DNA from: a virus
Lineage: Duplodnaviria > Caudoviricetes
Reading direction: 5' to 3' (one strand)
DNA: 41,563 bases
Virus record (IMG/VR): IMGVR_UViG_3300037450_000099
Coordinates: 1 to 41,563 of that record
Shown: positions 21,136-41,563 of the stretch, piece by piece
Position numbering within the stretch: the first letter of the stretch is position 1
Layout of the letters: each line of letters starts with the position of its first letter
Made by a program: the position numbers and the translations under genes
Notes under the pieces: model-generated
Databases searched by the model: none
Seen by the model: the letters and a program-made list of their open reading frames with translations, nothing else
Told to the model about the DNA's origin: nothing

Positions 21136-21206
21136 GCTGGTGTAGTTCAATGGTAGAACCTCAGCGTGCCAAGCTGATGATGTGGGTTCGATTCCCATCA
21201 CCCGCT
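21136..21206 (+). tRNA. tRNA-Gly (anticodon GCC), atypical
   Basis: Cloverleaf: acceptor GCTGGTG/CACCCGC, D arm GTTC/GAAC, anticodon arm TCAGC-GTGCCAA-GCTGA, T arm GTGGG-TTCGATT-CCCAT, discriminator T. CCA is not encoded. Confidence 0.85.
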
Positions 21207-21382
21207 CATTGTCTCCCCGCCACAAAATGCCCAAGCACCACAAATCCAATACCCGCCAGCCAGTAAGGTGCCCCGGCCACCAGTGCATGTCCCTCAGTCA
21301 AGTCTATGGTATGCAAACGGCCATAGACAAGGCAGAGCACTCCCGCAACGACGATGCACCAACCGGCGCAACGAGCACTCAC
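21206..21382 (-). CDS. small two-TM membrane protein (58 aa, MSARCAGWCIVVAGVLCLVYG...PYWLAGIGFVVLGHFVAGRQ)
   Basis: Not in the ORF track. GTGA coupling to an upstream 28-codon ORF (21379..21465); two hydrophobic segments. Confidence 0.6.
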   Translation of the reverse strand: MSARCAGWCIVVAGVLCLVYGRLHTIDLTEGHALVAGAPYWLAGIGFVVLGHFVAGRQ

Positions 21383-21461: not shown

Positions 21462-21899
21462 TCACGGCACTGTCACCGTAATAGATATCGTAATCTCCGT
21501 TGCCCCTGATGGCGCGGTGAGATCCACGTCAGGCACCACCACCGTGTCACTCTGTGCCCAATCCGAGCAGTTGGCGAACGGCGCGCCCGTCTGCGGATGC
21601 GTCGCGTTATCACAGGCGCGTGCCAACACAAAGACGCGCTCGCCCCCCGTCAACGGAAGCACGGGAAAGGCATGCTGTAGTGTGCTGCCCTGAGCAGGTG
21701 ATGCGCTAGGCGCGGGGATGGTTGCCGTTTGTATTGCGCCCTGCCCATCGACATGCACTTCTAGATCGTATCGGCCAAGATCGGTAAGCGCTGATCCGTC
21801 CATGCTCGTCGTCGGCTCTGTCCACTGGACTTCTCCGGAATAGGTGGCCGCATGGGCAGGGATTGCCAGCAGCAACACGAGTACCGGGATAATTCTCAT
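21462..21899 (-). CDS. secreted Fn3-like single-domain protein
   Basis: Signal peptide MRIIPVLVLLLAIPAHA; WTEPTTSMDGSALTDLGRY Fn3-like motif; GAGGTAGG RBS. Confidence 0.75.
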   Translation of the reverse strand: MRIIPVLVLLLAIPAHAATYSGEVQWTEPTTSMDGSALTDLGRYDLEVHVDGQGAIQTATIPAPSASPAQGSTLQHAFPVLPLTGGERVFVLARACDNATHPQTGAPFANCSDWAQSDTVVVPDVDLTAPSGATEITISITVTVP

Positions 21900-21926
21900 G
21901 GTCCTACCTCTTGTTCCGTTCGTTGC

Positions 21927-22157
21927 TTAAAGCTTTTTCGGGGGTGGGTTTGGATGCGGTCTAAATCCAGTAGGCTGATAGCCTGGTTTTTCACAGAGCC
22001 TGCCTTTGCGGATTTCCTCGTTGTAAAGCCGCTTCAATCGAAGTAGCTCGGCTCGTCGATTTTCCAACACCATCCCGAACCCTGCCTCGCCATATCGAAA
22101 TCCATACCAGACACATATCCACCAATCGCGCAGCCACCACAATCGGCCGCGATTCAC
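21927..22157 (-). CDS. hypothetical Trp/Arg-rich protein
   Basis: GTGA coupling to the DHH gene; 76 aa. Confidence 0.55.
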   Translation of the reverse strand: MNRGRLWWLRDWWICVWYGFRYGEAGFGMVLENRRAELLRLKRLYNEEIRKGRLCEKPGYQPTGFRPHPNPPPKKL

Positions 22158-23000
22158 GACGCCGCCCCGTGGTTGATTCGATACCCGGCCGCATGTTTGT
22201 GACCACCCCCTCCGAATTGTTTGGCTATCTCGGACACATCTATTCCGTCATCTTGTGACCTTAGCGAAAACACCCGGCCTGCCGGTGTATCCCAGTAGCA
22301 GGCCGCAAAAGGTTCGTTTTCAGCCATGATGTGGCCCGCGTCCGAGGACCAGAAATAGGGCGCGTTCAGCACAGGAACATTGTGCCCAGCCACGTCCATT
22401 CTGTAGGCTGCCGCTGTAATAAATTCCCGTATGTCCTTAAAGTGCTTGCGCTCAATTGACGACCCTTCGCGCCGCAACTGCGCCATATCTGCATCCATAA
22501 GGTCATCCCAGACATCGAATTCATATGGATAGGAAAACACCGCCGCCTGTATCTCTCGTGTCCCATCAAGCTCAAACCGCCACAAATCCCGGTCCTGGAT
22601 ATGCCGCAATAGCGTAGGCGGACACTCGCCCGGAATGCCTTGATTCGTAAAAAAATAGTCCCATGTCAGCATGGCGCCACTACGACATAAGTCAAAATTT
22701 ACTTCAACGTTTTCGGGTAAGTCCACAAGATCGATCTGCGCCGTCTTATGGTGGTCTATAACCACGATTTGCTTTGCCTTTGATGCCATCTCAAGCAGCA
22801 CTGGGCGCTTGTAGCTGAAATCGACAATATAAACCGTCCGCCCTCCAACGTCAGGGGGGGGGTCTTGGTGGATACCCGCATAAAAATCCACCTTATCCTT
22901 ACCGAAATATTTGCGCACAGCCCACGCCGCAGCGAACCCATCGGCACAATTTCCGTGATAGATACACAGTGGTTTTTGCGAGATATTCACGACGCCGCCC
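22152..23000. repeat. 16-bp exact direct repeat flanking the DHH gene (22152-22167 and 22985-23000)
   Basis: attcacgacgccgccc at both gene junctions; both upstream genes end in AAS-stop. Confidence 0.85.
22154..22990 (-). CDS. DHH/DHHA1 phosphoesterase (NrnA-like)
   Basis: YHGNCADG, IVDFSY, IDHHKT, DRDLW, FSLRS, GGGGHKHAAG. Confidence 0.93.
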   Translation of the reverse strand: MNISQKPLCIYHGNCADGFAAAWAVRKYFGKDKVDFYAGIHQDPPPDVGGRTVYIVDFSYKRPVLLEMASKAKQIVVIDHHKTAQIDLVDLPENVEVNFDLCRSGAMLTWDYFFTNQGIPGECPPTLLRHIQDRDLWRFELDGTREIQAAVFSYPYEFDVWDDLMDADMAQLRREGSSIERKHFKDIREFITAAAYRMDVAGHNVPVLNAPYFWSSDAGHIMAENEPFAACYWDTPAGRVFSLRSQDDGIDVSEIAKQFGGGGHKHAAGYRINHGAAS

Positions 23001-25050
23001 GATGATCAATCAAGAAAGTGTCCCTAACCTGCCGCCCATCGGTGAAAGTAGCGTCCACACCGTACATCGTTGCCTGATATCGCCCCGCAGGGATATTGCC
23101 CGTATAGCGTCCGAAGTAAACGCCTACCGCGTCCGGGTCCGTCAGGTCAAAATAGGTTGGGTCAGCGGTGCTATCGAGCGTGTAGTCTGGTGTGCCGTCG
23201 GGTGTGTCGGTAAATAATTCGACGACCCATTGGCTATACAGCGTGATGTCTTCGAGCTCATTCTCATTCTCGTCAGATTCTTTCACGACACTCAATCGCG
23301 TTAGATTGCCCCGATTCTGGAAGGTAACGAAATTCTCCATTCTGACAGCCCCCGCTGTTGCTGGATCTTGGCCATAGCGCAGGATACGCAAATATTCGGA
23401 TAGATCCCCTACGGCTGCAAGCTGGAAGGGCTCGGGCGTTACAGCCGCCAGCGTTGTCACCTCCAGCGCTGCGGATATCGGCCCTTCATAGCCGAAGGCG
23501 TCGATAGTCAGGACTGTTATATCATAGGCAGTGGCTGGCAAAACGCCCGAGAAAAACGCGCTCGTTTGCGTTTGAGTGATAAACACGCCGTCTCTATACC
23601 AATGATAAAACACCGCGCCCGGAACGGCCGTACAGGACACGCGGAAAGATGTCTCAGCAATCAGAGAGGACACCAGCCCGAGCGGCGTATCGAGCACCGG
23701 CAGCACCTCAAGCGCCGATACATAGCCTATGCCGACCACGCCCGAAAAAGTGGCGGTGAATACCCCATCGGAGACGAAAACGTAATCTTTCAGAAGCGCC
23801 GTCTCAAGGCCGGCTTCGTCGAGAACATCCAGCCCCGCCTCGACCGTCACACCGGCAACGCCAATGCCTATGATGCGCTCGCCAATTTCCACACCCGGAT
23901 CGAATTCGGCGAAATGACACACAGCGCGCCAATCCCCTACGGGCAGCGGAAATTCATAGCCAAATGAGTTTCCGGCAATGGCTTCTAGCGCAATGGACTG
24001 ATAGAGAAGCGGGTCGGCTGTGCCTGATATTTGTGCCGTGGTGACGTTGCCGTTAAGCACAGCGCCGTTAATTGCCGTGTCCCCATACCAGCGGAACCCC
24101 GTGCTAGCGTCATAATCGACAAGCTGCCCACTATCAATCCGAATGTCACTAGCTGTTATTGCCGACTGCTGGATGCTCTCTGAGCTATTGCCCGCCGCAT
24201 CCGTATCCCGCACTACATAGTTGTAGGCTGTATCGAGCGTCAGATTCGAGATTTTTTGCGACGTCGTTTCCGGTGGAATCGTCGAGATTTCAACGCCGTC
24301 TTGATACAGCGTGCGAGTAACAACGCCCACGTTGTCCGCAGGTGCCGAAATTGCCAACACCACTTCGTGAAAATTCAGGGGCGAGGCTTGCAAGATGGGC
24401 ACGGTCGGCGCTTCAACGTCGGCGCCTTGGCCCAGCACCAACCGCAGCGCCACGATGTTTGGAAAATCAACCACGGCGTTGACATCGAGCCGAAAAGTCC
24501 CGATGCCGCCGCCCTCGTCAGTGACGGTGATGTCCACGTTTCGCACGATGGCATCATTGCCGCCGACTGATATATCGACGTTGCCGTCAACCACGGCGCC
24601 TTGCATCCAAGACAGCTCAACCACGCGCTGCCCAGGAGTCGTGAATACCGAATCGCTGGCCCAATAGGACGCCGTGTAGTCGCCCGATGCCACGCCAGGG
24701 ATTACGATATTGACTGCAATTGCTTTGTACGCTTCCGTCGCAAAAAGCAGGCTGTCGGATGCGTCGAGCCCTAGCAGCGTCAGGTCATTGCTGGGCAGTG
24801 TGCGTGTGTCTCCGCCCCATGTGATCGGCGTATCGACATAATAGGGCGCCAGGGTCAGCCAGGTTTCGCCAGTCGTGCCGTTGACGATGTTGGAAACGCC
24901 TGCTGTGTAGCGGTAGACGGTTGGAGTTGCGCCGCCCGTGGCACTAAATGTGGACGCAGATGCCGCGCCCTCGTTGACGCTATCGGCTAGCGCATTCTGT
25001 GCGCCTGGCTCCAGGAATCCAACGGTTGACCCGCCGTGATAGGTGGCCAC
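22987..25050 (-). CDS. acidic multidomain protein: Fn3 - malectin-like - Fn3
   Basis: Fn3 DVEAPTVP...DNVGV...YVVRDTDAAGN; malectin-like IRIDSG...TADPLLYQS...HFAE...GLDVLDEAG...VSALEV; second Fn3 PATAYDITV. Confidence 0.8.
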   Translation of the reverse strand: MATYHGGSTVGFLEPGAQNALADSVNEGAASASTFSATGGATPTVYRYTAGVSNIVNGTTGETWLTLAPYYVDTPITWGGDTRTLPSNDLTLLGLDASDSLLFATEAYKAIAVNIVIPGVASGDYTASYWASDSVFTTPGQRVVELSWMQGAVVDGNVDISVGGNDAIVRNVDITVTDEGGGIGTFRLDVNAVVDFPNIVALRLVLGQGADVEAPTVPILQASPLNFHEVVLAISAPADNVGVVTRTLYQDGVEISTIPPETTSQKISNLTLDTAYNYVVRDTDAAGNSSESIQQSAITASDIRIDSGQLVDYDASTGFRWYGDTAINGAVLNGNVTTAQISGTADPLLYQSIALEAIAGNSFGYEFPLPVGDWRAVCHFAEFDPGVEIGERIIGIGVAGVTVEAGLDVLDEAGLETALLKDYVFVSDGVFTATFSGVVGIGYVSALEVLPVLDTPLGLVSSLIAETSFRVSCTAVPGAVFYHWYRDGVFITQTQTSAFFSGVLPATAYDITVLTIDAFGYEGPISAALEVTTLAAVTPEPFQLAAVGDLSEYLRILRYGQDPATAGAVRMENFVTFQNRGNLTRLSVVKESDENENELEDITLYSQWVVELFTDTPDGTPDYTLDSTADPTYFDLTDPDAVGVYFGRYTGNIPAGRYQATMYGVDATFTDGRQVRDTFLIDHRAAS

Positions 25051-26685
25051 TTAGATCTCCGGGCCCTGCGCCACCGCGTTAGCGAGGCACCCATAGCCGC
25101 TCAAATGCGTGGCGCTTGATCCATAATCGACCATCGACGAGCCCACGGGCGGAACACATTCGTTGATCGTGTAGAGCTCTGGACCAGTTAGCAGCTTGCG
25201 GTAAAAAGTATAGTCAAGCAGGCCCGCCGTTGCGCGGTCTGGGAATGTGAGCTTGTTGGTTTCGCTCTGGTCCGGCGTATTGACGTACGCATTATAGTCT
25301 GTCCGCCCGCCCATCGATCCCGCAAAGCCTTGATCGCAATCGATGATCAAATTCGCCTGAAAATCATGCTGGTAGCCGCGGTTGACTGCATACGGGTCGT
25401 AGTTCCCTGCGCTTTCCTTGCCCTCAAACACAAGCGTGTTGAAAAGAAATTGATTCGTGCTGGTTGAGATCAAAAACGTATTGTGATTGTTAGACTGGAA
25501 GTGCAGCGCATCCGGGTCGTCATAGGTCTCCATCACCAGCAAATTGCGGTTTATGGAATTATTGCCGGCCGCATTAGCCGCGGCATTGTAATTTGCGTGA
25601 TTGATGCACATGGCAGATGGGCCAATGATATTTTCAACGACAACGATATAGCGGGCGCCGATGTACGGTGATCCTCCCTGACTCAGTATCATTGCGGCCG
25701 TGCCATAGGCGCCTGAGCCGGTGCCGTTGTTCGGCCGCTTGCGCTTACCCCACAATCTATTTTTCATGAATATCGCCGGGTTGCCTTGGCTGGCAAATCC
25801 TTTGATATCAATATTTTGCTCGCCCTGCACATAGGGGTAATCTGCAATCGGAGACACCTGATCCCACAATGTGCCGTCACCCTTCGCCCGCATTTTGTCC
25901 GATTTGTAGCAGCAGTTATTCTCGACAACCAGCCCGCTCGTATCTGCATTCGTGACGATTTCGTCGCCGCCCCCGTCGAAAAACTCGTTACACGAAACCC
26001 AACTGTCTTGTGTGCTGAACATCTCGCAAGGCTCAGAATCGACGCCCGCCGCAAGTACGCAATCAAACCCGACGTTATATTGCACCGACAGGCCGTAGCT
26101 GGTCCAACCTCCGGCAAATATGCCTTTAAGAGCAAACTGTTGCATGCAATGGGAGACGGTAATGTCCTGTGCCAGATCACCGGTTGACGCGTTGCGCTCG
26201 ATATAAACCGTGCGATTGGCCGAGGACGTGGTGTTGTCCCCCTCAAACGCCAGCCGATACAAGCAAAAACCAGCCCCGCCCTGGAATCGAATACGCCGCA
26301 ACCGCACCCGATTCCCCTCTGCTAAATCGTAGGGATGCGTCTGCGCCCCATCAGTGGACCCCAAAAAAATCGGTGCGCCCGAGAGCTTGCGACGATAGAT
26401 CGTGATTTGGCCAAGGGATCGATAGTCGCCCGGCGCAAACCCAATATTGATGTTGTTGGTGTTAGCAATCGCGGCTTCGATTGTCGCGAGACTGTCAGAC
26501 GCCGTTAAAACCACGTCCCAAGACGCGGGGAATGTAATAGGGCTATAAGCGCCCAGCGTCCCCCCGCCGATGTGGTCGGTGACTGCCGTGCGATAGGCAT
26601 CCGCCACCGTATCCCCGGAGTGGACAATGGGACGGACATAAAGCGGACGGTAGCCGTTAGCGTCAATCAGGGGCAGCAGCGCCAT
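25051..26685 (-). CDS. right-handed beta-helix (pectin lyase-like) protein, putative depolymerase or adhesin
   Basis: FAPGDY, Asn-ladder repeats VSCNEF, VVENNC, NIDIKG, FMKNRLW, VVENII. Confidence 0.7.
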   Translation of the reverse strand: MALLPLIDANGYRPLYVRPIVHSGDTVADAYRTAVTDHIGGGTLGAYSPITFPASWDVVLTASDSLATIEAAIANTNNINIGFAPGDYRSLGQITIYRRKLSGAPIFLGSTDGAQTHPYDLAEGNRVRLRRIRFQGGAGFCLYRLAFEGDNTTSSANRTVYIERNASTGDLAQDITVSHCMQQFALKGIFAGGWTSYGLSVQYNVGFDCVLAAGVDSEPCEMFSTQDSWVSCNEFFDGGGDEIVTNADTSGLVVENNCCYKSDKMRAKGDGTLWDQVSPIADYPYVQGEQNIDIKGFASQGNPAIFMKNRLWGKRKRPNNGTGSGAYGTAAMILSQGGSPYIGARYIVVVENIIGPSAMCINHANYNAAANAAGNNSINRNLLVMETYDDPDALHFQSNNHNTFLISTSTNQFLFNTLVFEGKESAGNYDPYAVNRGYQHDFQANLIIDCDQGFAGSMGGRTDYNAYVNTPDQSETNKLTFPDRATAGLLDYTFYRKLLTGPELYTINECVPPVGSSMVDYGSSATHLSGYGCLANAVAQGPEI

Positions 26686-26688
26686 GCA

Positions 26689-26961
26689 TCAAACCTCCGG
26701 GTAGTCGATTAAATCGGTGTCAATATCGCTGATATCTTGATCGATTTCCGTCAGCTCTGCCGCCGCATCGGCAACGGTTTCCCTCGAATTCACCCGATTG
26801 CGCCGCGTCTCAATCAAAGACGCTCGGACCGCTTGTCGAATCCGCCGCGCTACGTAGAGACTCGGCCCCGTCGCTGTTAAACCGCCCAAATCGTCATAGA
26901 CAGCCTTCCACTGCTGCGGGGTACCTTCGAAGATGATTTCGACTTTGTGACTAAAGGCCAT
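26689..26961 (-). CDS. hypothetical protein with C-terminal acidic coiled coil
   Basis: ATG at 26961 (TGATG overlap) with a GGAGG RBS. Confidence 0.7.
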   Translation of the reverse strand: MAFSHKVEIIFEGTPQQWKAVYDDLGGLTATGPSLYVARRIRQAVRASLIETRRNRVNSRETVADAAAELTEIDQDISDIDTDLIDYPEV

Positions 26962-27299
26962 CAGTCCTCCCGATCCACAACCGTTACCGGGACATGCCAA
27001 TCAGCTTTTAGCCCGCCGCCAGCGTCCAGTGTCACCAACAGCTTATAGCCAGGCCCATTGGTCACAGACAAATTCGCCGAAATCAAGGCGTTGTAGTATC
27101 CGGGCGTTAATGATTCAGCAAGCGCAACGGGCCACGTTTCACCCGTCACAACCTGGCCGCTCGGGTCAAGCATTGACACCACCTCGCCCGTGGCCCCCGT
27201 CACTGTCAGCCCGTCGAGTGCATTAGTGACCGGGGTGCCATTCGGGCCGCTAACCCGGACTAGCCCCGTGTTGCGGTTATACCAGGCTTCAATCGCCAT
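26961..27299 (-). CDS. small beta-rich (Ig-like) putative virion protein
   Basis: ETWPVAL...PGYYNAL...YKLLVTLDAG; coupled within the operon. Confidence 0.65.
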   Translation of the reverse strand: MAIEAWYNRNTGLVRVSGPNGTPVTNALDGLTVTGATGEVVSMLDPSGQVVTGETWPVALAESLTPGYYNALISANLSVTNGPGYKLLVTLDAGGGLKADWHVPVTVVDRED

Positions 27300-27803
27300 T
27301 TAGGCGGTGAAAGTGGCAGTCACATCGATGGTCTCACCGTTATCGAGCGCTTTATTGCCGCCAGTGAAGGCACCGGCGCTATAGAGCACGCCCGTCGTAC
27401 CGCCCTTGGTGGAAATATCGCACAGAAAGGCGCCGCCGATCGTTTGGGTGTCGGTGTCAATCGAAAAAGTGGCCACTGCGCCGGAATTGTCCACACTGCC
27501 CGCGGCTACTGCGCCATCGGTCCAGACTTCGCGCGTTGCTTCGGTGTAGTTCTCGTTCTCGGTCCACCCACCATGAGACGCCATGGTATCGGCCACGTTT
27601 GGTGTAGGCGTGGCGTTGGTGAGCCCCAAATACCAAGCCGCTTTGGGTGTGCCGTTGGTCAGCCCCATGGTCAACAGCTCGTTTTTGCCGACAGTCGTCA
27701 CCAAGTTTTCAATGGTGTCAGTCCACTTTACAGTTCCGTCCGGGCGTCGGCACACGATCAGATAGTGCCCATGCACCTCGACGCCTTGATTCAAGTCAGT
27801 CAT
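27300..27803 (-). CDS. conserved phage structural protein (fibre- or collar-associated)
   Basis: IENLVTTVGKN, WYLGL, DTMASHGGWTE, GVLYSAGAF; a family I recall next to LamG fibre genes. Confidence 0.7.
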   Translation of the reverse strand: MTDLNQGVEVHGHYLIVCRRPDGTVKWTDTIENLVTTVGKNELLTMGLTNGTPKAAWYLGLTNATPTPNVADTMASHGGWTENENYTEATREVWTDGAVAAGSVDNSGAVATFSIDTDTQTIGGAFLCDISTKGGTTGVLYSAGAFTGGNKALDNGETIDVTATFTA

Positions 27804-30186
27804 CTTCGTTCACCTCAATTCGCGCACTCAGGGCGCTAACAATGGACACAGCAGCGATCAGAAAGCCCACGCCGCCCCGGTAATCATACACCGCCCCGGC
27901 ACTTGCCGCTTCGGTTAGGGTCGATTGTAACTGCGCGGCAGCATTGAAAAAAGCAATTGCCGATGCCGCGTCAAGAATGGAATCCACGAATTGCCCCGCA
28001 AGGGCAAACGTCGCCGCCAGGCTCGCAGACTCAGAAACGCCTGCGGTGAGCCCTCGCAAAGCACTCAAAACGGCCGCGCTGGCCGCTGCTTCCGTCACCG
28101 CATCGCTAAAACCCGTTACAGTCTGCGCTGCAAATAGACTGCCCGCGCTGACGCTGGAGCTCATGGCTGCAAGGGTGGCCGCCAACGCCCCCACAACCTC
28201 TTGAGCGCTGGCCGCATCAATGACATTGGCAACCACTGCGCCGCTGGCCAGGTACCCGTCTTGCGCCGATGCGGACGAAACCAAAACCGACAGGCCATCA
28301 ATAGCCGCAATAAATGCCGCCGCCGCGGTGCTCGGCTCAGTCACCACCCCCAGGCGATCGACCCGAGAGATAAAAGCAGCTAATGCTGTTGCCGCTTCAG
28401 TCGTGCCCCCCGACAGAGTTAGGACGCCCGTGATCGTGTCCGTGGTAGTCGCCGCGCTTAGCAAAACCGCCAGCTTTTGGATGGTCGCCGCATAGGCTTC
28501 GGCGGGACTTGCCGCCGCCGCGTAATCAACTCCCAATGCCGCCACTGCAAACATAGCGTCAGCGCTGGCCGTTGCATTTTCGATTAACCCAACATTCATC
28601 CCGATATTGATGTATTGCGAGTCTGATGCCACCGTCGATTGATTGTTGCTGGTGTCGTAGGCGTACACGGTGACGTTGACAGTGCCCGCAGTCAGTGTGC
28701 CAAGTGGCACCTGGTAGGTGACATCGATGTGTCCGCCCCCGCTGGAGCTCGTTGCCGCGTTAGTGTGAATAACGTCGTCGCCCGCTATTTCTTCAACTTC
28801 TATCGTAACCTCAGTACGATCGAGGTCGTTTTGAGCCGGACTGGGCTCGTCGTATTGCACCCGAATATAAGCCCAATTTGATGGGGTCCACGTCTCGGCG
28901 GCCGTTGCAGCTTCCGTCAACAACCCGCTGATACCTAGCGAACTGGTCCAGGTTTCCGCTGCGCTTGCCGCTGCCACCAAGGCCCCGAGTTTTTGGATTG
29001 CCGCCGTAACTTGCTCGGTCGGCGCGGCCGATGCCAACAATTGACTGATGCCGCTTAACTGTGCGGTCCACGCTTCGTCTGCGCTAGCCCCTGCGCTATA
29101 AGCACCCAAGGCCGCAATCAAGGCGCTGGTCTGATCGCTGGCGGTGCTGGATTCGAGCACCGATTCGGCCCGCTTCAGAATCGCTGCAATCGTTTCGGCA
29201 GGCGTCGCGGCGGCAGGAATAGCGGCCAATAAATCCGCTCGCTTCAGGCGTGTATCGCCGGCCGTTGCCGCGGCCGTCATTGCCATACCGTAATGGCCTG
29301 CCCCCACATGCGAAAAACCGGCACTAGCCGATTCGGTCAGTGCGCCGCTAAATCCTCTCAGCCCTAAAAACGTATCGGCCGCTGTTGCCGCTTCGGTCAC
29401 TGCGCCAGTAATCGGAGTAGGCAACACCGCCGCGTAATCGAATCCGGCACTAGCCGATTCGGTCAACGACCCAACCAACCTCTGCAAACCTAAGAATGTT
29501 TCTGCCGCCGTTGCGGCTTCGGTCACTGCTCCCGTTATTGCGGGCGCTGAAACAGGCGGCTCAAGCGCTTCATAGGTAACGGTGCCGTTTGCCGTCCAGG
29601 TGTTAATTTCGTTGTCGGTGGCATCATCCGTGAAAGGGCAATCGTTGCGCAGATTCGTCGTGATGACGGGAGACGATGCCGCCTTTTCTGCCAGCAGCTC
29701 AGCCGTGGTTAACGTGTCATTCCAGGCCCGGAAGTAGCCGATATTTCCGTTTAGTCCCTCGTCGTAAAGGGAATCGCCGCCGATTAAATAAGAGGTTGGG
29801 GTGAATGAAGCACCCCGCGCCGTGCCGGTATACGTAAATCCACTATCATCCGCAGGAGAGACGCCCATCCAGATATCGGCTGCGCCTGTGCCCTGGCAGT
29901 ATCCAGCAACGAAATACCATTCGGCATCGGTATAGCTGCCAACATCCGAGGAATCCCAATTGCCGTCATAGCCCGTCACGTCAAAACGCTGGGCGCCATC
30001 ATCGATAACCTGCCACTCTACAAGTCCAGATGGGTTGCCCGCGAAAAGCGCTAAAATGTTTCCCCAGTTGGCCGGAGGCGCACCCCGGTTATAGACCCAG
30101 CAGGAAAAGCTAAAATTAGTGGGGGTCGGCAGCGCGCCAGCCGTTGCCGCTAGGCGTGCCGTATTTGAATTAAATCGGACGCTCAC
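27796..30186 (-). CDS. LamG/ConA-like domain plus long Ala-rich repeat stalk with an inserted Fn3-like domain
   Basis: FSFSCWV, WYFVAG, LNGNIGYFRAWNDTLT (LamG-like); ~19-21-aa repeats of the (V/L)TEAATAAET type. Confidence 0.8.
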   Translation of the reverse strand: MSVRFNSNTARLAATAGALPTPTNFSFSCWVYNRGAPPANWGNILALFAGNPSGLVEWQVIDDGAQRFDVTGYDGNWDSSDVGSYTDAEWYFVAGYCQGTGAADIWMGVSPADDSGFTYTGTARGASFTPTSYLIGGDSLYDEGLNGNIGYFRAWNDTLTTAELLAEKAASSPVITTNLRNDCPFTDDATDNEINTWTANGTVTYEALEPPVSAPAITGAVTEAATAAETFLGLQRLVGSLTESASAGFDYAAVLPTPITGAVTEAATAADTFLGLRGFSGALTESASAGFSHVGAGHYGMAMTAAATAGDTRLKRADLLAAIPAAATPAETIAAILKRAESVLESSTASDQTSALIAALGAYSAGASADEAWTAQLSGISQLLASAAPTEQVTAAIQKLGALVAAASAAETWTSSLGISGLLTEAATAAETWTPSNWAYIRVQYDEPSPAQNDLDRTEVTIEVEEIAGDDVIHTNAATSSSGGGHIDVTYQVPLGTLTAGTVNVTVYAYDTSNNQSTVASDSQYINIGMNVGLIENATASADAMFAVAALGVDYAAAASPAEAYAATIQKLAVLLSAATTTDTITGVLTLSGGTTEAATALAAFISRVDRLGVVTEPSTAAAAFIAAIDGLSVLVSSASAQDGYLASGAVVANVIDAASAQEVVGALAATLAAMSSSVSAGSLFAAQTVTGFSDAVTEAAASAAVLSALRGLTAGVSESASLAATFALAGQFVDSILDAASAIAFFNAAAQLQSTLTEAASAGAVYDYRGGVGFLIAAVSIVSALSARIEVNEDD

Positions 30187-32747
30187 GGCGCGACTTGTTC
30201 GATTTGGAGATTTAGCACCGGGCCAGGTGCGGTAGTGTCGGCGCCCGTAAATACTGGCCCAATATACTCAGTCGCGACCACAACATTGTCATACCATTTG
30301 TCGTTTTGCTGTGATGAGCCTTGCCCCCCGTTCTCAAGCTGAATCTCATCCAATTTTACCGTATCGGCTACGCGCCAGCGCACATTATGCCAATCAGCCG
30401 CCAGCACCCCATCTTTCCAGAAAGCTATTCGACCGTCACTCTGTCCGACCGTGTTGAGCTTTATATAAATCTCTAGAGAAACCCATTGATCCAAGATCGG
30501 CACTTGATTTGACCTGGACACAAACTCTCCACCAAATCCCCCATCCGGCCCATCACCGTTCGACGTTAGGCCACTCGGGTACCAATGCTCTCCATAGGCG
30601 TCATTTTGCTCTGAATGGTACACATAGGCGTTAATGTATCCCGGCTGCGTTTCGCCTTGATATTGCGACGACTCAATACCGACAAACGCAAACGCCGTGC
30701 TTGGTCCTTGTCCTGGCCCCGGGTAATCCGCAGTGACGCGTGTACCATTGTGCGCAGAATTTACACCCGCATAACCAGCCTGGTAGCGCTCCATCACGCG
30801 AATATAGATTTCGTCGCGATCTGGAGTGAGCGTCTTTACAATAGCGTTTGATACTTCCGAACCCGTGCTTGGCATCCGAAGACGCACGGCTTTAGACCCG
30901 CCATAAAAAGTACCCGTGTCTATTGCGATGTTTCCCGATTGATAAAAGTTGTCCCAATTTGCAGAAAGATCAGCAGTAACAGTATAGGATTCGAAATCAT
31001 CGACAAATAAAACTGCCAAGTCTGTGCCTATATTGGTGTCGCTTGGATACCCGGCAGCAATCCCGTTGTCCCCCTCGGGCAGCGCCGGGTAATTGGCACC
31101 TGACACAGTAACCTGAGCCGTGTCGTTAACGTCACCGCCCGCGCCGGTGCAATCAACCTCATAGACTGTCGTGACTGTCGGCGACACGCTGACAGGCCCA
31201 CCCGATGTTGCGCCACCCGTGGAAAACCCAGTACCTGTGCAACTCGTCGCGTCCGTGCTGGTCCATGACAAATCGGATGAATCACCGGAATCGATGGTTG
31301 TGGGGTCCGCCGTCAGGCTTGCAGTGGGCGCTGTCGGGCTCCCTGTGACCGTGACCAATACCGTGTCATTTGCCGAGCCACCGGGTCCGGTGCAATCGAC
31401 TTCGTAGGTCAGCGTAGAAACGGGAGAATCCGAGACCGGGCCGCCAGACGTGGCACCGCCCGTCGAAAAGTTGGTGCCCGTGCAACTCGTCGCGTCTGTG
31501 CTGCTCCAAGTCAGATCGGTTGATCCAGGGTATGCGACTGTCGTCGGGTTAGCGTTGATTGTTGCGGTGGGAGTAGGACCAGAAGCAAGTGCAGGGTGCG
31601 GATAAGTGTAGGCGGTATAGCCAGGCTTGGCGCCGCCGTCGATAATGTAGTCCCGACCCGACTGGTAGAAATCCGTCCAGGTGAATCCGCACGGGTTGCC
31701 GTAATTCCAGCCCGCATTGATCGCCTGACCGCCCCCGGTGTTGTTATAAATTCTTATGGGGTCGGTGAAATAGCTGGTGCCGTTGTGGTTCTGCCCTAGC
31801 TGCTGCTCAACGGGGTAAGATGTATTGCCGCAACTGCCCTCGACCAGCGGAGATTCAGCTCCGCGAATGGTGAATTTTAGCTCTGCCTTATCTCCCCAAA
31901 AGCCGCCCGCCATGTCGTCAATGTCGTTATTGTAGAAAAACCCGGTGCCGCCACGAATCCAGATTGCCCAGTTCTGGTTGCCTATCTGCTCTGTAGAGCC
32001 GTTGTGGATAAAGTTGTTATTGTAAACCTCGAAATGCCGCACAGAGCTGGGCGAGGTCGCATAGCCGTGAGTGTTAAAAGATGAATAGGTTAGGTCGTTG
32101 TACCGATAGACGCAGCGGCTTTGCTCGTCGCAGTCTATGCCCTGATTCGTCCCTCCGTAAAAAGTATTATCTTCAACGTAGATATTACTACGCCCATCCG
32201 TATCCCTATCGCCTAGGGTGTCGGCTGTTGTCCAGGAGTTAGTATCCCCCTGATATTTCGGCTGGATGAAGGAATCGTCCCATGCCCCCGTAAAATCATT
32301 GTTGGCGATAACCACACCGCCAGGTGTCGATATGATAAAGAGCCCGGTGCCCGAAATATCAAACTCGTTGCCGTCGAAGACAATCGGCTGACCACTGGGC
32401 CAAGGGCCGCTGAGTGTCCACCCCTTTGAGCTATTGCCGCCCCCGGATTTGCTGAAAGAAAACGCCTTGATGCGCGTGACGCCGCCCGTCTGCTTGGTGA
32501 CAGAATTGCCAGCGCCGAGAGTGATATTTGTGACACCAATACCAGCCCCGATAATGTCCACGGCTTTGGCGATAGATAGAGAAGACCAAGTACATGAGCC
32601 CGCGGGCACGGCAACAGTGTCGCCTGCATTCGCGGTGCCGATTGCGGTATTTACGTCACCTTCAGAGCAAGACGATGCGTTGACCGTAGCGGCTTCCGCC
32701 TGCCCAAATCCTAGGGCAAGCAGCAGAAGCCATAGAAAACGAATCAT
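30183..32747 (-). CDS. secreted multidomain glycan-active protein: beta-helix, two Ig-like repeats, jelly-roll polysaccharide-lyase-like domain
   Basis: Signal peptide MIRFLWLLLLALGFGQAEA; AGDTVAVPAG and Asn ladders; two WxSTDATSCTG repeats; LFVDDFE...QWVSLEIYIKLN...DGRIAFWKDG...WYDNVVVATEYIGP. Confidence 0.8.
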   Translation of the reverse strand: MIRFLWLLLLALGFGQAEAATVNASSCSEGDVNTAIGTANAGDTVAVPAGSCTWSSLSIAKAVDIIGAGIGVTNITLGAGNSVTKQTGGVTRIKAFSFSKSGGGNSSKGWTLSGPWPSGQPIVFDGNEFDISGTGLFIISTPGGVVIANNDFTGAWDDSFIQPKYQGDTNSWTTADTLGDRDTDGRSNIYVEDNTFYGGTNQGIDCDEQSRCVYRYNDLTYSSFNTHGYATSPSSVRHFEVYNNNFIHNGSTEQIGNQNWAIWIRGGTGFFYNNDIDDMAGGFWGDKAELKFTIRGAESPLVEGSCGNTSYPVEQQLGQNHNGTSYFTDPIRIYNNTGGGQAINAGWNYGNPCGFTWTDFYQSGRDYIIDGGAKPGYTAYTYPHPALASGPTPTATINANPTTVAYPGSTDLTWSSTDATSCTGTNFSTGGATSGGPVSDSPVSTLTYEVDCTGPGGSANDTVLVTVTGSPTAPTASLTADPTTIDSGDSSDLSWTSTDATSCTGTGFSTGGATSGGPVSVSPTVTTVYEVDCTGAGGDVNDTAQVTVSGANYPALPEGDNGIAAGYPSDTNIGTDLAVLFVDDFESYTVTADLSANWDNFYQSGNIAIDTGTFYGGSKAVRLRMPSTGSEVSNAIVKTLTPDRDEIYIRVMERYQAGYAGVNSAHNGTRVTADYPGPGQGPSTAFAFVGIESSQYQGETQPGYINAYVYHSEQNDAYGEHWYPSGLTSNGDGPDGGFGGEFVSRSNQVPILDQWVSLEIYIKLNTVGQSDGRIAFWKDGVLAADWHNVRWRVADTVKLDEIQLENGGQGSSQQNDKWYDNVVVATEYIGPVFTGADTTAPGPVLNLQIEQVAP
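31100..31575 (-). repeat. tandem duplication of an ~78-aa Ig-like domain
   Basis: PTATINANPTT...WSSTDATSCTGTNFSTGGATSGGPVS...YEVDCTG repeats as PTASLTADPTT...WTSTDATSCTGTGFSTGGATSGGPVS...YEVDCTG. Bounds are approximate. Confidence 0.85.
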
Positions 32748-33229
32748 GCTTGTCGGTCAATCCATGTGGGCAGTCCCGCCACGAACGTGTCGAGCACGGT
32801 CCTAAGTCCTGCCGTTTGCGCTACGGTAAAGGGCCGGTCTGTCCACTGCCCGTCAGTCTCCATGCTGACAACGCTGGCATACTGCCCCGTTTTGGGCACC
32901 AGCGCATACACGTCAGCGATCACCGTATCGATGGCAGCAACGATGGCGGCATAGTCAGCCGCAATATCATTGCCAGGAAGATTTGTTGCCGCTTTGGCAT
33001 GCGCCCCGATCCCTGGAGTCTGCCGCAAAACATCTAGCTTGGTTTTGCCGTCAGCAAATTGCTCGGTTAGCCGGCGAATGGGGGACACGGTGATATCGGC
33101 AATGGCTGACGCGGCGCTAAGCTGAGCCGCTCGCCCTCTAAGCTGTCGGACGGTCCCGACAAAATCGCCGAATTCTTCATTAAGATTCATACGCTTCGCT
33201 CGCTTTGGGCTTGCGTCATTGTAGAGCAA
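32744..33229 (-). CDS. hypothetical helical protein heading the fibre/glycan block
   Basis: 161-aa ORF (alternative start at MNLNEE) with ATGA coupling to the next gene. Confidence 0.7.
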   Translation of the reverse strand: MLYNDASPKRAKRMNLNEEFGDFVGTVRQLRGRAAQLSAASAIADITVSPIRRLTEQFADGKTKLDVLRQTPGIGAHAKAATNLPGNDIAADYAAIVAAIDTVIADVYALVPKTGQYASVVSMETDGQWTDRPFTVAQTAGLRTVLDTFVAGLPTWIDRQA

Positions 33230-34465: not shown

Positions 34466-35212
34466 CTACCCACGTTTCCTATCCTCTGCGTCCGCCGCAC
34501 GAATGTAGTGCTCAATCGCATGATCGTCGAGTCCGTCAGTCAATCGCCCCTCGCTGATGGCGAGCACGCGCCCCTTGAATCGGTCACCGAGCACCAGCGA
34601 GCTTTCCGGGTTGTGGTGGACTAATCCGGCGTGATCGATATACCGCCATTGCCCAACGTGGCTGTATCCCCAGTCGGCAGGAGGCAAGCGCGGGACAATG
34701 TCGTTATTGTGGCTCCAACTTGTAGACTCGTAATGCACCGCGCTGATGAGCTCAGCACACAACGGATTGCCGACCCGTGGCGCAGCGAATGTATGAAATT
34801 CGTGAATCAGGCGGTCGAAGGCTAGCAACCGGCAAAGCGCATGGGCCACCGCACCACCCAGACTATGCCCCGTGACGATGACCCGCTCCGCACCGGAAAA
34901 GTTAATAGTTTGCACGATATCATCAGCGATGGATTCCGCCGCTTCAGCAAACCCACGCCGGATGCCATTCTCCGCGCACGTCCCCGGCGTCAGATTGGTG
35001 ACCCAGTCGCGAATTTGCTGGGTGCCACGGATGGCAATCACGAGCTCGCGGTCAACACCGCACACCAATGCCTCGGTGCTGGTGACTTTCTTGACCAGGC
35101 TATTTATATGCACATAGCCGAGTGCTTCAAGGTCAATCTCCCAGTAAGGCTGGATACCATAAGTCACAAGACACAGCCGGGCCAGGCGGCCAAACGAAAA
35201 CGGGCGGTCCAT
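34466..35212 (-). CDS. class 3 lipase (alpha/beta hydrolase)
   Basis: IAIRGT...DWVTNL, IVTGHSLGGAVA (Ser), TFAAPRVGN, NNDIVPRLP (Asp), DHAIEHY (His); TGATG start at 35212. Confidence 0.93.
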   Translation of the reverse strand: MDRPFSFGRLARLCLVTYGIQPYWEIDLEALGYVHINSLVKKVTSTEALVCGVDRELVIAIRGTQQIRDWVTNLTPGTCAENGIRRGFAEAAESIADDIVQTINFSGAERVIVTGHSLGGAVAHALCRLLAFDRLIHEFHTFAAPRVGNPLCAELISAVHYESTSWSHNNDIVPRLPPADWGYSHVGQWRYIDHAGLVHHNPESSLVLGDRFKGRVLAISEGRLTDGLDDHAIEHYIRAADAEDRKRG

Positions 35213-35457
35213 CACAACCACCCCCACTCGGGCGCGCTAAACCGCTCTCTCGCAAAATACCTTACGCGGCTTCTGCCCTTCGTTGAAAACTGGTGCCGCT
35301 CGCAGAGCTCATCCCGCCGCAACCCACCGAGCGCCGCTTCAATCTGCTGAGTCGTCGCCCATTTCATTCTCTGCCTTGCCTCTGTCGATGTGAGCCCTTC
35401 GCCGCCGCGCTCTTTCAGAAAAGTCAGCAGCGTCTGGCGGATGTTTGTGTCAGTCAT
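35212..35457 (-). CDS. putative winged-helix DNA-binding protein
   Basis: LLTFLKERGGEGLTSTEA...IEAALGGL...KGRSRVRYF; ATGA coupling. Confidence 0.6.
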   Translation of the reverse strand: MTDTNIRQTLLTFLKERGGEGLTSTEARQRMKWATTQQIEAALGGLRRDELCERHQFSTKGRSRVRYFARERFSAPEWGWL

Positions 35458-40875: not shown

Positions 40876-41211
40876 ATGAATATCAACAACTTGACGATCG
40901 GACAGGCAAAGGAACTCGTAGACATGATCGGGCGGTGCGAAGACACCAACGCCCACCCGTTCAAAATTGGCGAAGCCTACCTATTCCGCACTGTTACCTA
41001 CATTGACGTGGGGCGCGTTGTCGCAATTACAGGGAAATTCCTTACGTTAGCGGATGCCTCTTGGATTGCGGACACTGGACGCTATGCCGATTGCCTAACA
41101 TCGGGTGTATTCGATGAGATTGAGCCATATCCGGGATTCGCATACCTCAACATCGAAACAATAGTAGACGCCGCACCGTGGCAGCACATACTGCCGAGCG
41201 CACAAAAATGA
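40876..41211 (+). CDS. conserved small beta-barrel-like (Sm/SH3-like) phage protein
   Basis: PFKIGEAYLFRTVTYIDVGRVVAI...LTLADASWIADTGR...AYLNIETIVDA; AAGGA RBS. The fold call is an inference from the strand pattern. Confidence 0.75.
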   Translation: MNINNLTIGQAKELVDMIGRCEDTNAHPFKIGEAYLFRTVTYIDVGRVVAITGKFLTLADASWIADTGRYADCLTSGVFDEIEPYPGFAYLNIETIVDAAPWQHILPSAQK

Positions 41212-41471
41212 TTGCGCCATTATCAGTCGATGCACACAGGAGCGGGAGCTGGAGCGGGAGCAGGAGCGGGAGCTGGAGCGGGAGCTGGAGCAGGAGCTGG
41301 AGCGGGAGCTGGAGCTGGAGCTGGAGCAGGAACAGGAGCTGGAGCAGGAGCTGGAGCGGGAGCAGGAGCTGGAGCAGGAGCTGGAGCGGGAGCAGGAGCT
41401 GGAGCAGGAGCAGGAGCAGGAGCTGGAGCTGGAGCTGGAGCAGGAGCTGGAGCAGGAGCAGGAGCAAGTAA
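41208..41471 (+). CDS. Ser-(Arg/Trp/Gly) dipeptide-repeat protein (87 aa)
   Basis: ATGA overlap with the upstream gene and TAATG overlap with the downstream gene both select this frame. Confidence 0.75.
   Translation: MIAPLSVDAHRSGSWSGSRSGSWSGSWSRSWSGSWSWSWSRNRSWSRSWSGSRSWSRSWSGSRSWSRSRSRSWSWSWSRSWSRSRSK
41238..41465 (+). repeat. tandem hexamer array (D-GGAGC) x38
   Basis: Units are AGGAGC, TGGAGC or GGGAGC, with one AGGAAC variant; 228 bp. Confidence 0.95.
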
Positions 41472-41563
41472 TGCACATCTACATAGACGCAAGCGCGTTG
41501 CCGCTAGTCGCCCTCTCACAATGGGCGAAAGAGCGCGGCTATCGGATCAAGCAAGACGGGAAA
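41437..41563. repeat. second copy of the 127-bp terminal overlap
   Basis: Identical to 1-127. Confidence 0.95.

What the first reader, a model, noticed from the sequence alone, without database searches (positions are those of the whole stretch)
21462..32747. Candidate donor-strand-complemented Fn3 fibre system with three matching parts
Seen: two signal-peptide proteins end in a lone motif resembling the first (A) strand of an Fn3 domain. The 145-aa protein (21462..21899) ends DLTAPSGATEITISITVTVP and the 854-aa protein (30183..32747) ends DTTAPGPVLNLQIEQVAP. Both genes also end in the same 10-bp junction, cgctcacggc (21459 and 30180). The 145-aa protein starts directly at the Trp-bearing B strand (EVQWTEP...TDLGRYDLEVHV...SASPAQG...FPVLPLTGG..VFVLARACD). 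A similar domain with no evident A strand interrupts the Ala-rich stalk of the 796-aa LamG protein (~28600-28880: RVQYDEP...NDLDRTEVTIEV...TSSSGGG...YQVPLGTLTAGTVNVTVYAYD). Established: chaperone-usher and type V pili polymerise by strand donation into incomplete beta-sandwich domains. Inference: the 145-aa protein has both acceptor and donor and could polymerise, the 854-aa glycan-binding protein (donor only) could be the tip, and the LamG stalk protein (acceptor only, no signal peptide) could be the anchor. Exported and cytoplasmic parts would meet only at lysis. I know of no such described phage appendage.
Basis: partly seen in the sequence, partly recalled or inferred. Interest (0 to 1): 0.85.

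Follow-up and report, generated by a model that had tools for sequence, protein, structure and literature searches.

The report
Strand-tag socket in phage rope fibre
An uncultured phage has a likely bead-on-a-rope fibre whose rope carries an inserted domain predicted to lack one strand, and two likely exported proteins of the same phage end in a look-alike of that strand, so they would clip onto the fibre after the cell bursts, a still untested way to add exported parts to a virus particle.

Summary
The three parts are real. The 145-aa protein is a predicted Fn3 core (strands B-G) with an A-strand-like tail. The 854-aa protein ends in the same tail. The 796-aa protein carries a homologous A-less domain. 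The shared 10-bp junction means little. The fibre itself is probably not an Fn3 polymer: the 796-aa 'stalk' has a 20-residue period and lies beside a homologue of phage A1002 fibre protein gp41, so it is likely the rope of a chain-like fibre, with the A-less domain inserted mid-rope, in register. Best reading (0.4): a tag-and-socket joint that hangs exported proteins on that rope. For: tag-only micro-genes in other phages, adjacent tag/socket gene pairs, and tags kept on homologues of the 854-aa protein. Against: the single-chain model folds the tail back on itself, tail-less A-less domains are common in bacteria, and the three gene types were not found together in any other genome. The scan noted the same split-Fn3 idea before on other DNA (several bacteria, one phage). 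A split-domain joint is known in the Tuc2009 virion.

The parts
21462..21899 (-). 145-aa protein: likely Sec signal peptide, predicted Fn3 strands B-G with a Cys96-Cys111 pair, then an A-strand-like tail (socket plus tag)
21465..21524 (-). Tail of the 145-aa protein (residues 126-145), A-strand-like tag
30183..32747 (-). 854-aa protein: likely signal peptide, beta-helix region, two short repeats, PL14-like C-terminal domain, ten cysteines, terminal tag; stop codon overlaps the start of the 796-aa gene
30186..30239 (-). Terminal tag of the 854-aa protein (residues 837-854); no domain of its own to complete
   Evidence: kept in 7 of the 11 best homologues by eye
27796..30186 (-). 796-aa protein without signal peptide: N-terminal LamG domain plus Ala-rich 20-residue repeats, likely the rope of a chain-like fibre
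28600..28875 (-). About 92-residue A-less Fn3-like domain inserted in register between two rope repeats (candidate socket)
27300..27803 (-). 167-aa homologue of chain-like fibre subunits (A1002 gp41; weak Pfam Gp80), the likely 'bead' on the rope
   Evidence: (26LA/44NX chain, E 2.1e-17)

Best explanation
The 796-aa protein is likely the rope of a bead-on-a-rope phage fibre and carries an in-register 92-residue insert predicted to be an Fn3 domain without its first strand, and the likely exported 854-aa protein ends in a look-alike of that strand, which would complete the insert and so clip this predicted glycan-binding protein onto the fibre after lysis. Shown: the genes, their overlap, the 20-residue period, the insert's homology to the 145-aa family, the 167-aa protein's homology to A1002 gp41. 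Inferred: dimers of the 167-aa protein thread along the rope; export lets the cysteine-rich 854-aa protein fold with disulphides; tag and socket meet at lysis. The 145-aa protein has both socket and tag and would serve as a spacer or short extender between cargo and rope, not as the fibre shaft.
For: Rope: lag 20 is the top autocorrelation on both sides of the insert, and 23 of 76 non-duplicate loci with a 167-aa homologue have a period-20 neighbour; A1002 binds 11 dimers on a rope of about 226 residues (PMC13730344 sections 9 and 11; about 20 per dimer is my arithmetic). Insert in register: repeat spacing 132 = 20+92+20. Strand acting on another molecule: a 37-46-aa ORF made only of an amphipathic helix and the tag follows the exported family gene in 8 of 8 loci found by a pattern for the helix (6 distinct sequences), and in L333-L335 the exported protein shows no tail of its own; a tail-less domain gene directly precedes a tagged secreted protein in L250 and L121; 7 of the 11 best homologues of the 854-aa C-terminal domain end in the tag by eye. 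A second fusion of this domain to a period-20 rope exists in L149, with a signal peptide; L132 has a signal-peptide-bearing homologue of the 167-aa protein beside an exported family gene. Spacing from strand G to the tail (median 12.5, 12 of 32 rows measurable) is near that of true tandems (8-11, n=3). A contig from another study spans 27854-32625 without a difference. Precedent: Tuc2009 BppU hairpin completes BppA domain 2 (PMC4742702 passages).
Against: The single-chain model makes residues 135-142 a strand paired within the chain (pLDDT 65-69) and aligns over 17-145 with ExsB (2yjl_A, Z 7.4, rmsd 2.9, 93 residues), so fold-back is possible for the 145-aa protein. In bacteria 49 of 85 domain hits are A-less last domains with no tail; genome G040 has 3 such domains and 2.8 of its 3.86 Mb (1973 ORFs) show no excess of terminal tags, only one plausible tagged secreted protein. 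Several members stop before the strand part of the tail (P0011, P0012, P0018, L328, L329, L519). No relative of the 854- or 796-aa protein in viral contigs; 0 of 80 loci with a 167-aa homologue hold the domain; 2 of 39 phage records have a second domain match, a lower bound because known second copies were missed. Tag and socket are made in different compartments.
Confidence: 0.4

Rival explanations
1. No joint between chains. The six-stranded domain is stable alone, or its tail folds back as a last strand (ExsB-like). The three genes are separate acquisitions from host secreted proteins, the insert is a small adhesion or spacer domain, and the 854-aa tail is a passenger from its bacterial source.
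For: fold-back in the model; 49 of 85 bacterial hits tail-less; no tag excess in 72% of G040; short tails; no three-gene co-occurrence; most family genes in phages sit alone in varied contexts.
Against: Tag-only micro-ORFs and tag-only tails have no domain to fold back on; adjacent tag/socket pairs; some tails begin 2-4 residues after strand G (L130, L133), too short to reach back in the native direction (Fn3 geometry recalled); single-chain models tend to fill an open groove with any available strand (general knowledge).
Confidence: 0.3
2. The tag-and-socket joint is real but works only outside the cytoplasm of the infected cell: the 854-aa protein docks on the 145-aa protein or on host sockets at the cell envelope, and never joins the virion.
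For: Both tagged proteins share a compartment; bacterial lipoproteins carry lone A-less domains (L214, L250, L255, L258); family genes often lie near lysis or other late genes rather than fibre genes.
Against: The 854-aa gene overlaps the rope gene that holds the only other family domain of this genome. No integrase was seen among the 50 ORFs scanned with Pfam, so a lysogenic-conversion role has no direct support.
Confidence: 0.18
3. One reading: the 145-aa protein polymerises head to tail into a pilus-like shaft, capped by the 854-aa protein and rooted in the 796-aa insert.
For: Socket and tag in one small exported protein, an architecture common in phages (28 of 62 viral hits have a signal peptide directly before strand B); tandem-like spacing; all three logical parts are present in one genome.
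Against: The phage already encodes a likely chain-like fibre; the 145-aa gene is about 6 kb from the other two; fold-back in the model; no chaperone, usher or processing protease recognised; no co-occurrence elsewhere.
Confidence: 0.12

Closest known systems
Chain-like fibres of phages GP4 and A1002 (PMC13730344, sections 9 and 11 and passages read)
   Same: Small subunit homologous to A1002 gp41 beside a long repeat protein whose 20-residue period fits about 20 rope residues per dimer
   Different: Siphophage-type head and tail genes here; the rope begins with a LamG domain and is interrupted by an Fn3-like insert; the words signal peptide, donor and fibronectin do not occur in that paper
Lactococcus phage Tuc2009 BppU extension with BppA domain 2 (PMC4742702, passages read)
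   Same: A C-terminal extension of one virion protein completes the beta-sandwich of another, giving a titin-like composite domain and attaching a carbohydrate-binding module
   Different: There a 25-residue hairpin on the scaffold; here a single A strand on the cargo, which has a likely signal peptide, and the socket is on the scaffold; homology not tested
Donor-strand pili: chaperone-usher and type V (recalled); CPR Pam pili (PMC13278184, passages read)
   Same: Incomplete beta-sandwich, donated strand, acceptor-only and donor-only end pieces
   Different: Fn3 fold with strand A missing; no chaperone, usher or processing protease recognised; polymer not shown
ExsB pilotin fold (2yjl)
   Same: Whole mature 145-aa model, tail included, aligns at Z 7.4: a natural sandwich in which the last strand folds back
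   Different: 11% identity; tied with Fn3 hits; shared fold only

Membership tests
Fibronectin type III domain | Beta-sandwich core B-C-C'-E-F-G with Trp in strand B | tested here: met
   Model strands 19-27, 41-50, 55-62, 73-81, 88-97; most of the top 50 VIA rows are Fn3 chains, Z 6.6-7.5, middling; insert similar at Z 6-6.9 with mixed sandwiches
Fibronectin type III domain | Strand A in the same chain before strand B | tested here: not met
   Signal peptide directly before B in the 145-aa protein; rope repeat directly before the insert
Fibronectin type III domain | Pfam fn3 match | tested here: inconclusive
   No family at E 0.05 for the 145-aa protein or the insert; family profile hits titin and FN3con weakly, E 0.001-0.55
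Donor-strand pilus (chaperone-usher, type V, Pam) | Subunit with an incomplete sandwich and a terminal donor strand | tested here: met
   Predicted for the 145-aa protein
Donor-strand pilus (chaperone-usher, type V, Pam) | Strand inserts into the next subunit, giving a polymer | not testable with these tools
Donor-strand pilus (chaperone-usher, type V, Pam) | Dedicated chaperone, usher or processing protease encoded with the pilins | tested here: not met
   None among 50 window ORFs scanned with Pfam; a host factor is not excluded
Chain-like (bead-on-a-rope) phage fibre | gp80/gp40/gp41-type subunit | tested here: met
   E 2.1e-17 to the 171-aa chain of 26LA/44NX, identified as A1002 gp41 from length and figure legend
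Chain-like (bead-on-a-rope) phage fibre | Rope protein with repeated docking sites | tested here: inconclusive
   Period 20 fits, but no sequence match to a solved rope
Chain-like (bead-on-a-rope) phage fibre | Present on the virion | not testable with these tools
   Uncultured phage; no proteomics
Tuc2009 BppU/BppA split-domain joint | C-terminal extension completes the partner's sandwich on the virion | not testable with these tools
   Analogy only; binding untested, homology not tested

The most novel reading that the evidence does not exclude
Tailed phages export disulphide-bonded glycan-binding proteins through the host Sec route and snap them onto cytoplasm-built virion fibres at lysis through a natural split-Fn3 tag; small socket-plus-tag proteins, found in hundreds of phage contigs, chain up as extenders, making a modular appendage assembled across two compartments.
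Probability: 0.2. Interest if true: 0.85.

Novelty: new variant of a known kind. Interest (0 to 1): 0.55.

Why it matters
If right, a tailed phage finishes its particle outside the cytoplasm, using a short tag to add an oxidatively folded, exchangeable host-binding protein to a fibre. It would give a role to a widespread unnamed family of small exported phage proteins and supply a natural tag/catcher pair that two peptides and one 92-residue domain can test directly. If the rival holds, the lasting result is smaller: a chain-like fibre operon in a siphophage-type genome and a family of six-stranded Fn3 domains.

Tried and rejected
Junction 10-mer as evidence: rejected. Word-based homologue searches for the 145-aa protein and the insert returned only self; peptide-pattern scans found no relative of any of the three proteins in viral contigs; tblastn of the 145-aa protein against 50,697 cultured-phage records found nothing, and a relative hit only Microbacterium phage minor tail proteins weakly; a pattern for the closest subfamily found nothing in metagenome contigs. 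Foldseek gave no hit at E 0.001; the Atlas gave no usable hit for the insert; NCBIfam and PHROGs name no family for the 145-aa protein. Pfam on 112 of 132 listed neighbours of family genes found Gp80 once and LamG once; my profile of the 167-aa family hit 2 viral loci (L107, L132) and one bacterial locus; Gp80-like calls for L099, L140 and L149 made by eye were not confirmed (L140 E 0.004). Regex linker counts were small and noisy (one value of 6 is a mis-pick). Strict terminal tags near bacterial domains: 3 of 138 signal-peptide ORFs against 1 of 414 shifted controls, weak. Frameshift or read-through joining of the 854- and 796-aa genes would not help, since the insert lies 440 residues from the junction. 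Promoter and terminator counts were at shuffle level. No RNA holder listed. Literature: 8 searches listed no paper on an Fn3 strand-A tag in phages; the library lacks most subscription journals, the GP4 paper itself was not seen, and no supplements were opened.

Full report
Setting. The window is a whole virus record with direct terminal repeats and HK97-type terminase, portal, protease, capsid, neck, tail tube and tail genes. The finding lies in a minus-strand block upstream of the terminase genes. One public run holds it fully and may be its source; a contig from another study covers 27854-32625 with no difference, so the 854/796 junction and the insert are not an assembly artefact.

Observation. 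The three ORFs and both tails are as described. Scored with a matrix from 11 of 31 relatives' tails, the two tails rank first and second among 50 window ORFs; 1 of 376 internal blocks beats the lower one. The 145-aa model (17-row alignment, mean pLDDT 83) begins its sandwich at residue 19 and matches Fn3 chains from that point at Z about 7. The insert is homologous to the family by profile though not by pairwise BLAST; its flanks hold no A-like motif, and a low-confidence model shows no flanking strand. The 10-bp junction occurs four times and reflects a Pro codon, the stop and an overlapping GTG; it carries no weight.

The family. The 145-aa protein has 27 relatives among 50%-identity representatives, a first Atlas hit to a 276-member viral cluster, and its motif is in about 180 viral and about 1000 genome stretches (estimates). 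Of 62 distinct hits in 80 viral loci, 28 have a signal peptide directly before strand B, 21 are ordinary Fn3 domains with strand A in front, 6 are tail-less last domains and 7 other; of 85 hits in 80 bacterial loci, 49 are tail-less last domains (regex classes with some misfiling). So the A-less form is an established architecture, not an oddity of this phage.

What the stalk is. The 167-aa gene after the 796-aa gene matches a 171-aa chain of PDB 26LA/44NX at E 2.1e-17, which the A1002 paper identifies with gp41, a subunit of a chain-like fibre whose 11 dimers dock on a rope of about 226 residues (PMC13730344, sections 9 and 11). The Ala-rich region has period 20 on both sides of the insert, and 23 of 76 non-duplicate loci with a 167-aa homologue have a period-20 neighbour (41 had no periodic ORF, 12 another period). 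The insert adds 92 residues without breaking the register. I infer a LamG-tipped rope with room for about 23 dimers and a branch point in its middle. No solved rope matches by sequence, so this is homology plus period, not proof.

Does the tail act on another chain? For: in other phages a 37-46-residue ORF of an amphipathic helix plus the tag overlaps the stop of the exported family gene (8 of 8 loci retrieved by the helix pattern, 6 distinct); it has no domain to fold onto. L250 and L121 pair a tail-less domain gene with an adjacent tagged secreted protein, the same layout as the 854/796 pair. Seven of the 11 best homologues of the 854-aa C-terminal domain end in the tag by eye; three have that domain elsewhere in the chain and one has no tail. 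L149 fuses signal peptide, domain, tail and a period-20 rope, and L132 has a signal peptide on a 44%-identical homologue of the 167-aa protein (0 of 35 other homologues had one), so fibre parts can be exported. Against: the single-chain model pairs residues 135-142 within the chain and aligns whole with ExsB; several members end before the strand part of the tail; genome G040 has three tail-less domains yet 72% of it (1973 ORFs) shows no excess of terminal tags, with one plausible tagged secreted protein, L507. An A-less domain is therefore not a socket by definition. The complex prediction that would have weighed fold-back against donation was not available.

Co-occurrence. No relative of the 854- or 796-aa protein was found in viral contigs. 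Among 39 phage records chosen for a family gene, 2 had a second match (a lower bound, since known second copies were missed) and 8 a LamG match; the two second matches were an exported domain-plus-LamG protein and an ordinary Fn3. None of 80 loci with the 167-aa homologue holds the domain. The three-part set is so far unique to this genome, with no close relative to test it on.

Mechanism and odds. Most likely (0.4): the 854-aa protein is exported, folds with disulphides, and after lysis its tail completes the insert on the rope, hanging a glycan-binding module on the fibre; the 145-aa protein can sit between them as a spacer.

Known systems. Strand donation is known from pili (chaperone-usher and type V, recalled; CPR Pam pili, PMC13278184, passages). 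In a virion, the Tuc2009 BppU hairpin completes BppA domain 2 to a titin-like domain and attaches a carbohydrate-binding module (PMC4742702, passages). This locus would work like that joint but is not a member of any pilus family on the features tested. Eight literature searches (listings and abstract starts only, apart from the three papers named) listed no description of an Fn3 strand-A tag in phages. Earlier notes of this scan describe the same split-Fn3 idea in bacteria and one other phage and a rope module; they are unchecked leads, not evidence, and I reuse their 'tag and socket' wording. What this window adds is the socket inside a chain-fibre rope and the compartment mismatch.

Verdict. 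Real anatomy, a plausible but unproven joint, a different fibre from the one proposed. New variant of a known kind; interest 0.55.

Noticed in passing
L110, L126, L155, L330-L337 (fused forms in L088, L108): Three-gene cassette in other phages: exported Fn3 B-G protein with an extra small domain, a tag-only micro-ORF with a Trp/Cys-rich amphipathic helix, and a non-exported B-G-plus-tag protein
   Followed up: partly
L132 (6332-13493, minus strand): A fibre-type gene block in which the 167-aa homologue and most neighbours have signal-peptide-like N-termini
   Followed up: partly
L149:8368-10125: Single chain of signal peptide, A-less Fn3, tag, a further domain and a period-20 rope ending in an Arg run
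   Followed up: partly
L521:2861-3539: Two adjacent family genes without evident signal peptide (tail-less, then tagged) among phage morphogenesis-type genes
   Followed up: no
window 21136-21207 (+): tRNA-Gly(GCC) on the strand opposite the late genes, between the 145-aa gene and the HNH gene
   Followed up: no
window 22987-26685 (-): Two more carbohydrate-binding-type genes without signal peptide: 687 aa (malectin and ordinary Fn3 matches) and 544 aa (beta-helix-like by eye, 11 cysteines, no Pfam match)
   Followed up: no
window 26689-27299 and 32744-33229 (-): Small unannotated genes (103, 112 and 161 aa) coupled to the rope operon; possible adaptors, untested
   Followed up: no
window 22154-22990 and 34466-35227 (-): DHH/DHHA1 phosphoesterase and class 3 lipase genes flank the block
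   Followed up: no
window about 41180-41520: Long six-base tandem repeat that reads as Ser-Arg-Trp, Ala-Pro or Leu-Gln runs by frame
   Followed up: no
window 2128, 16130, 21459, 30180: The same 10-mer occurs four times against 0.23 expected; the two copies outside the finding were not examined
   Followed up: no
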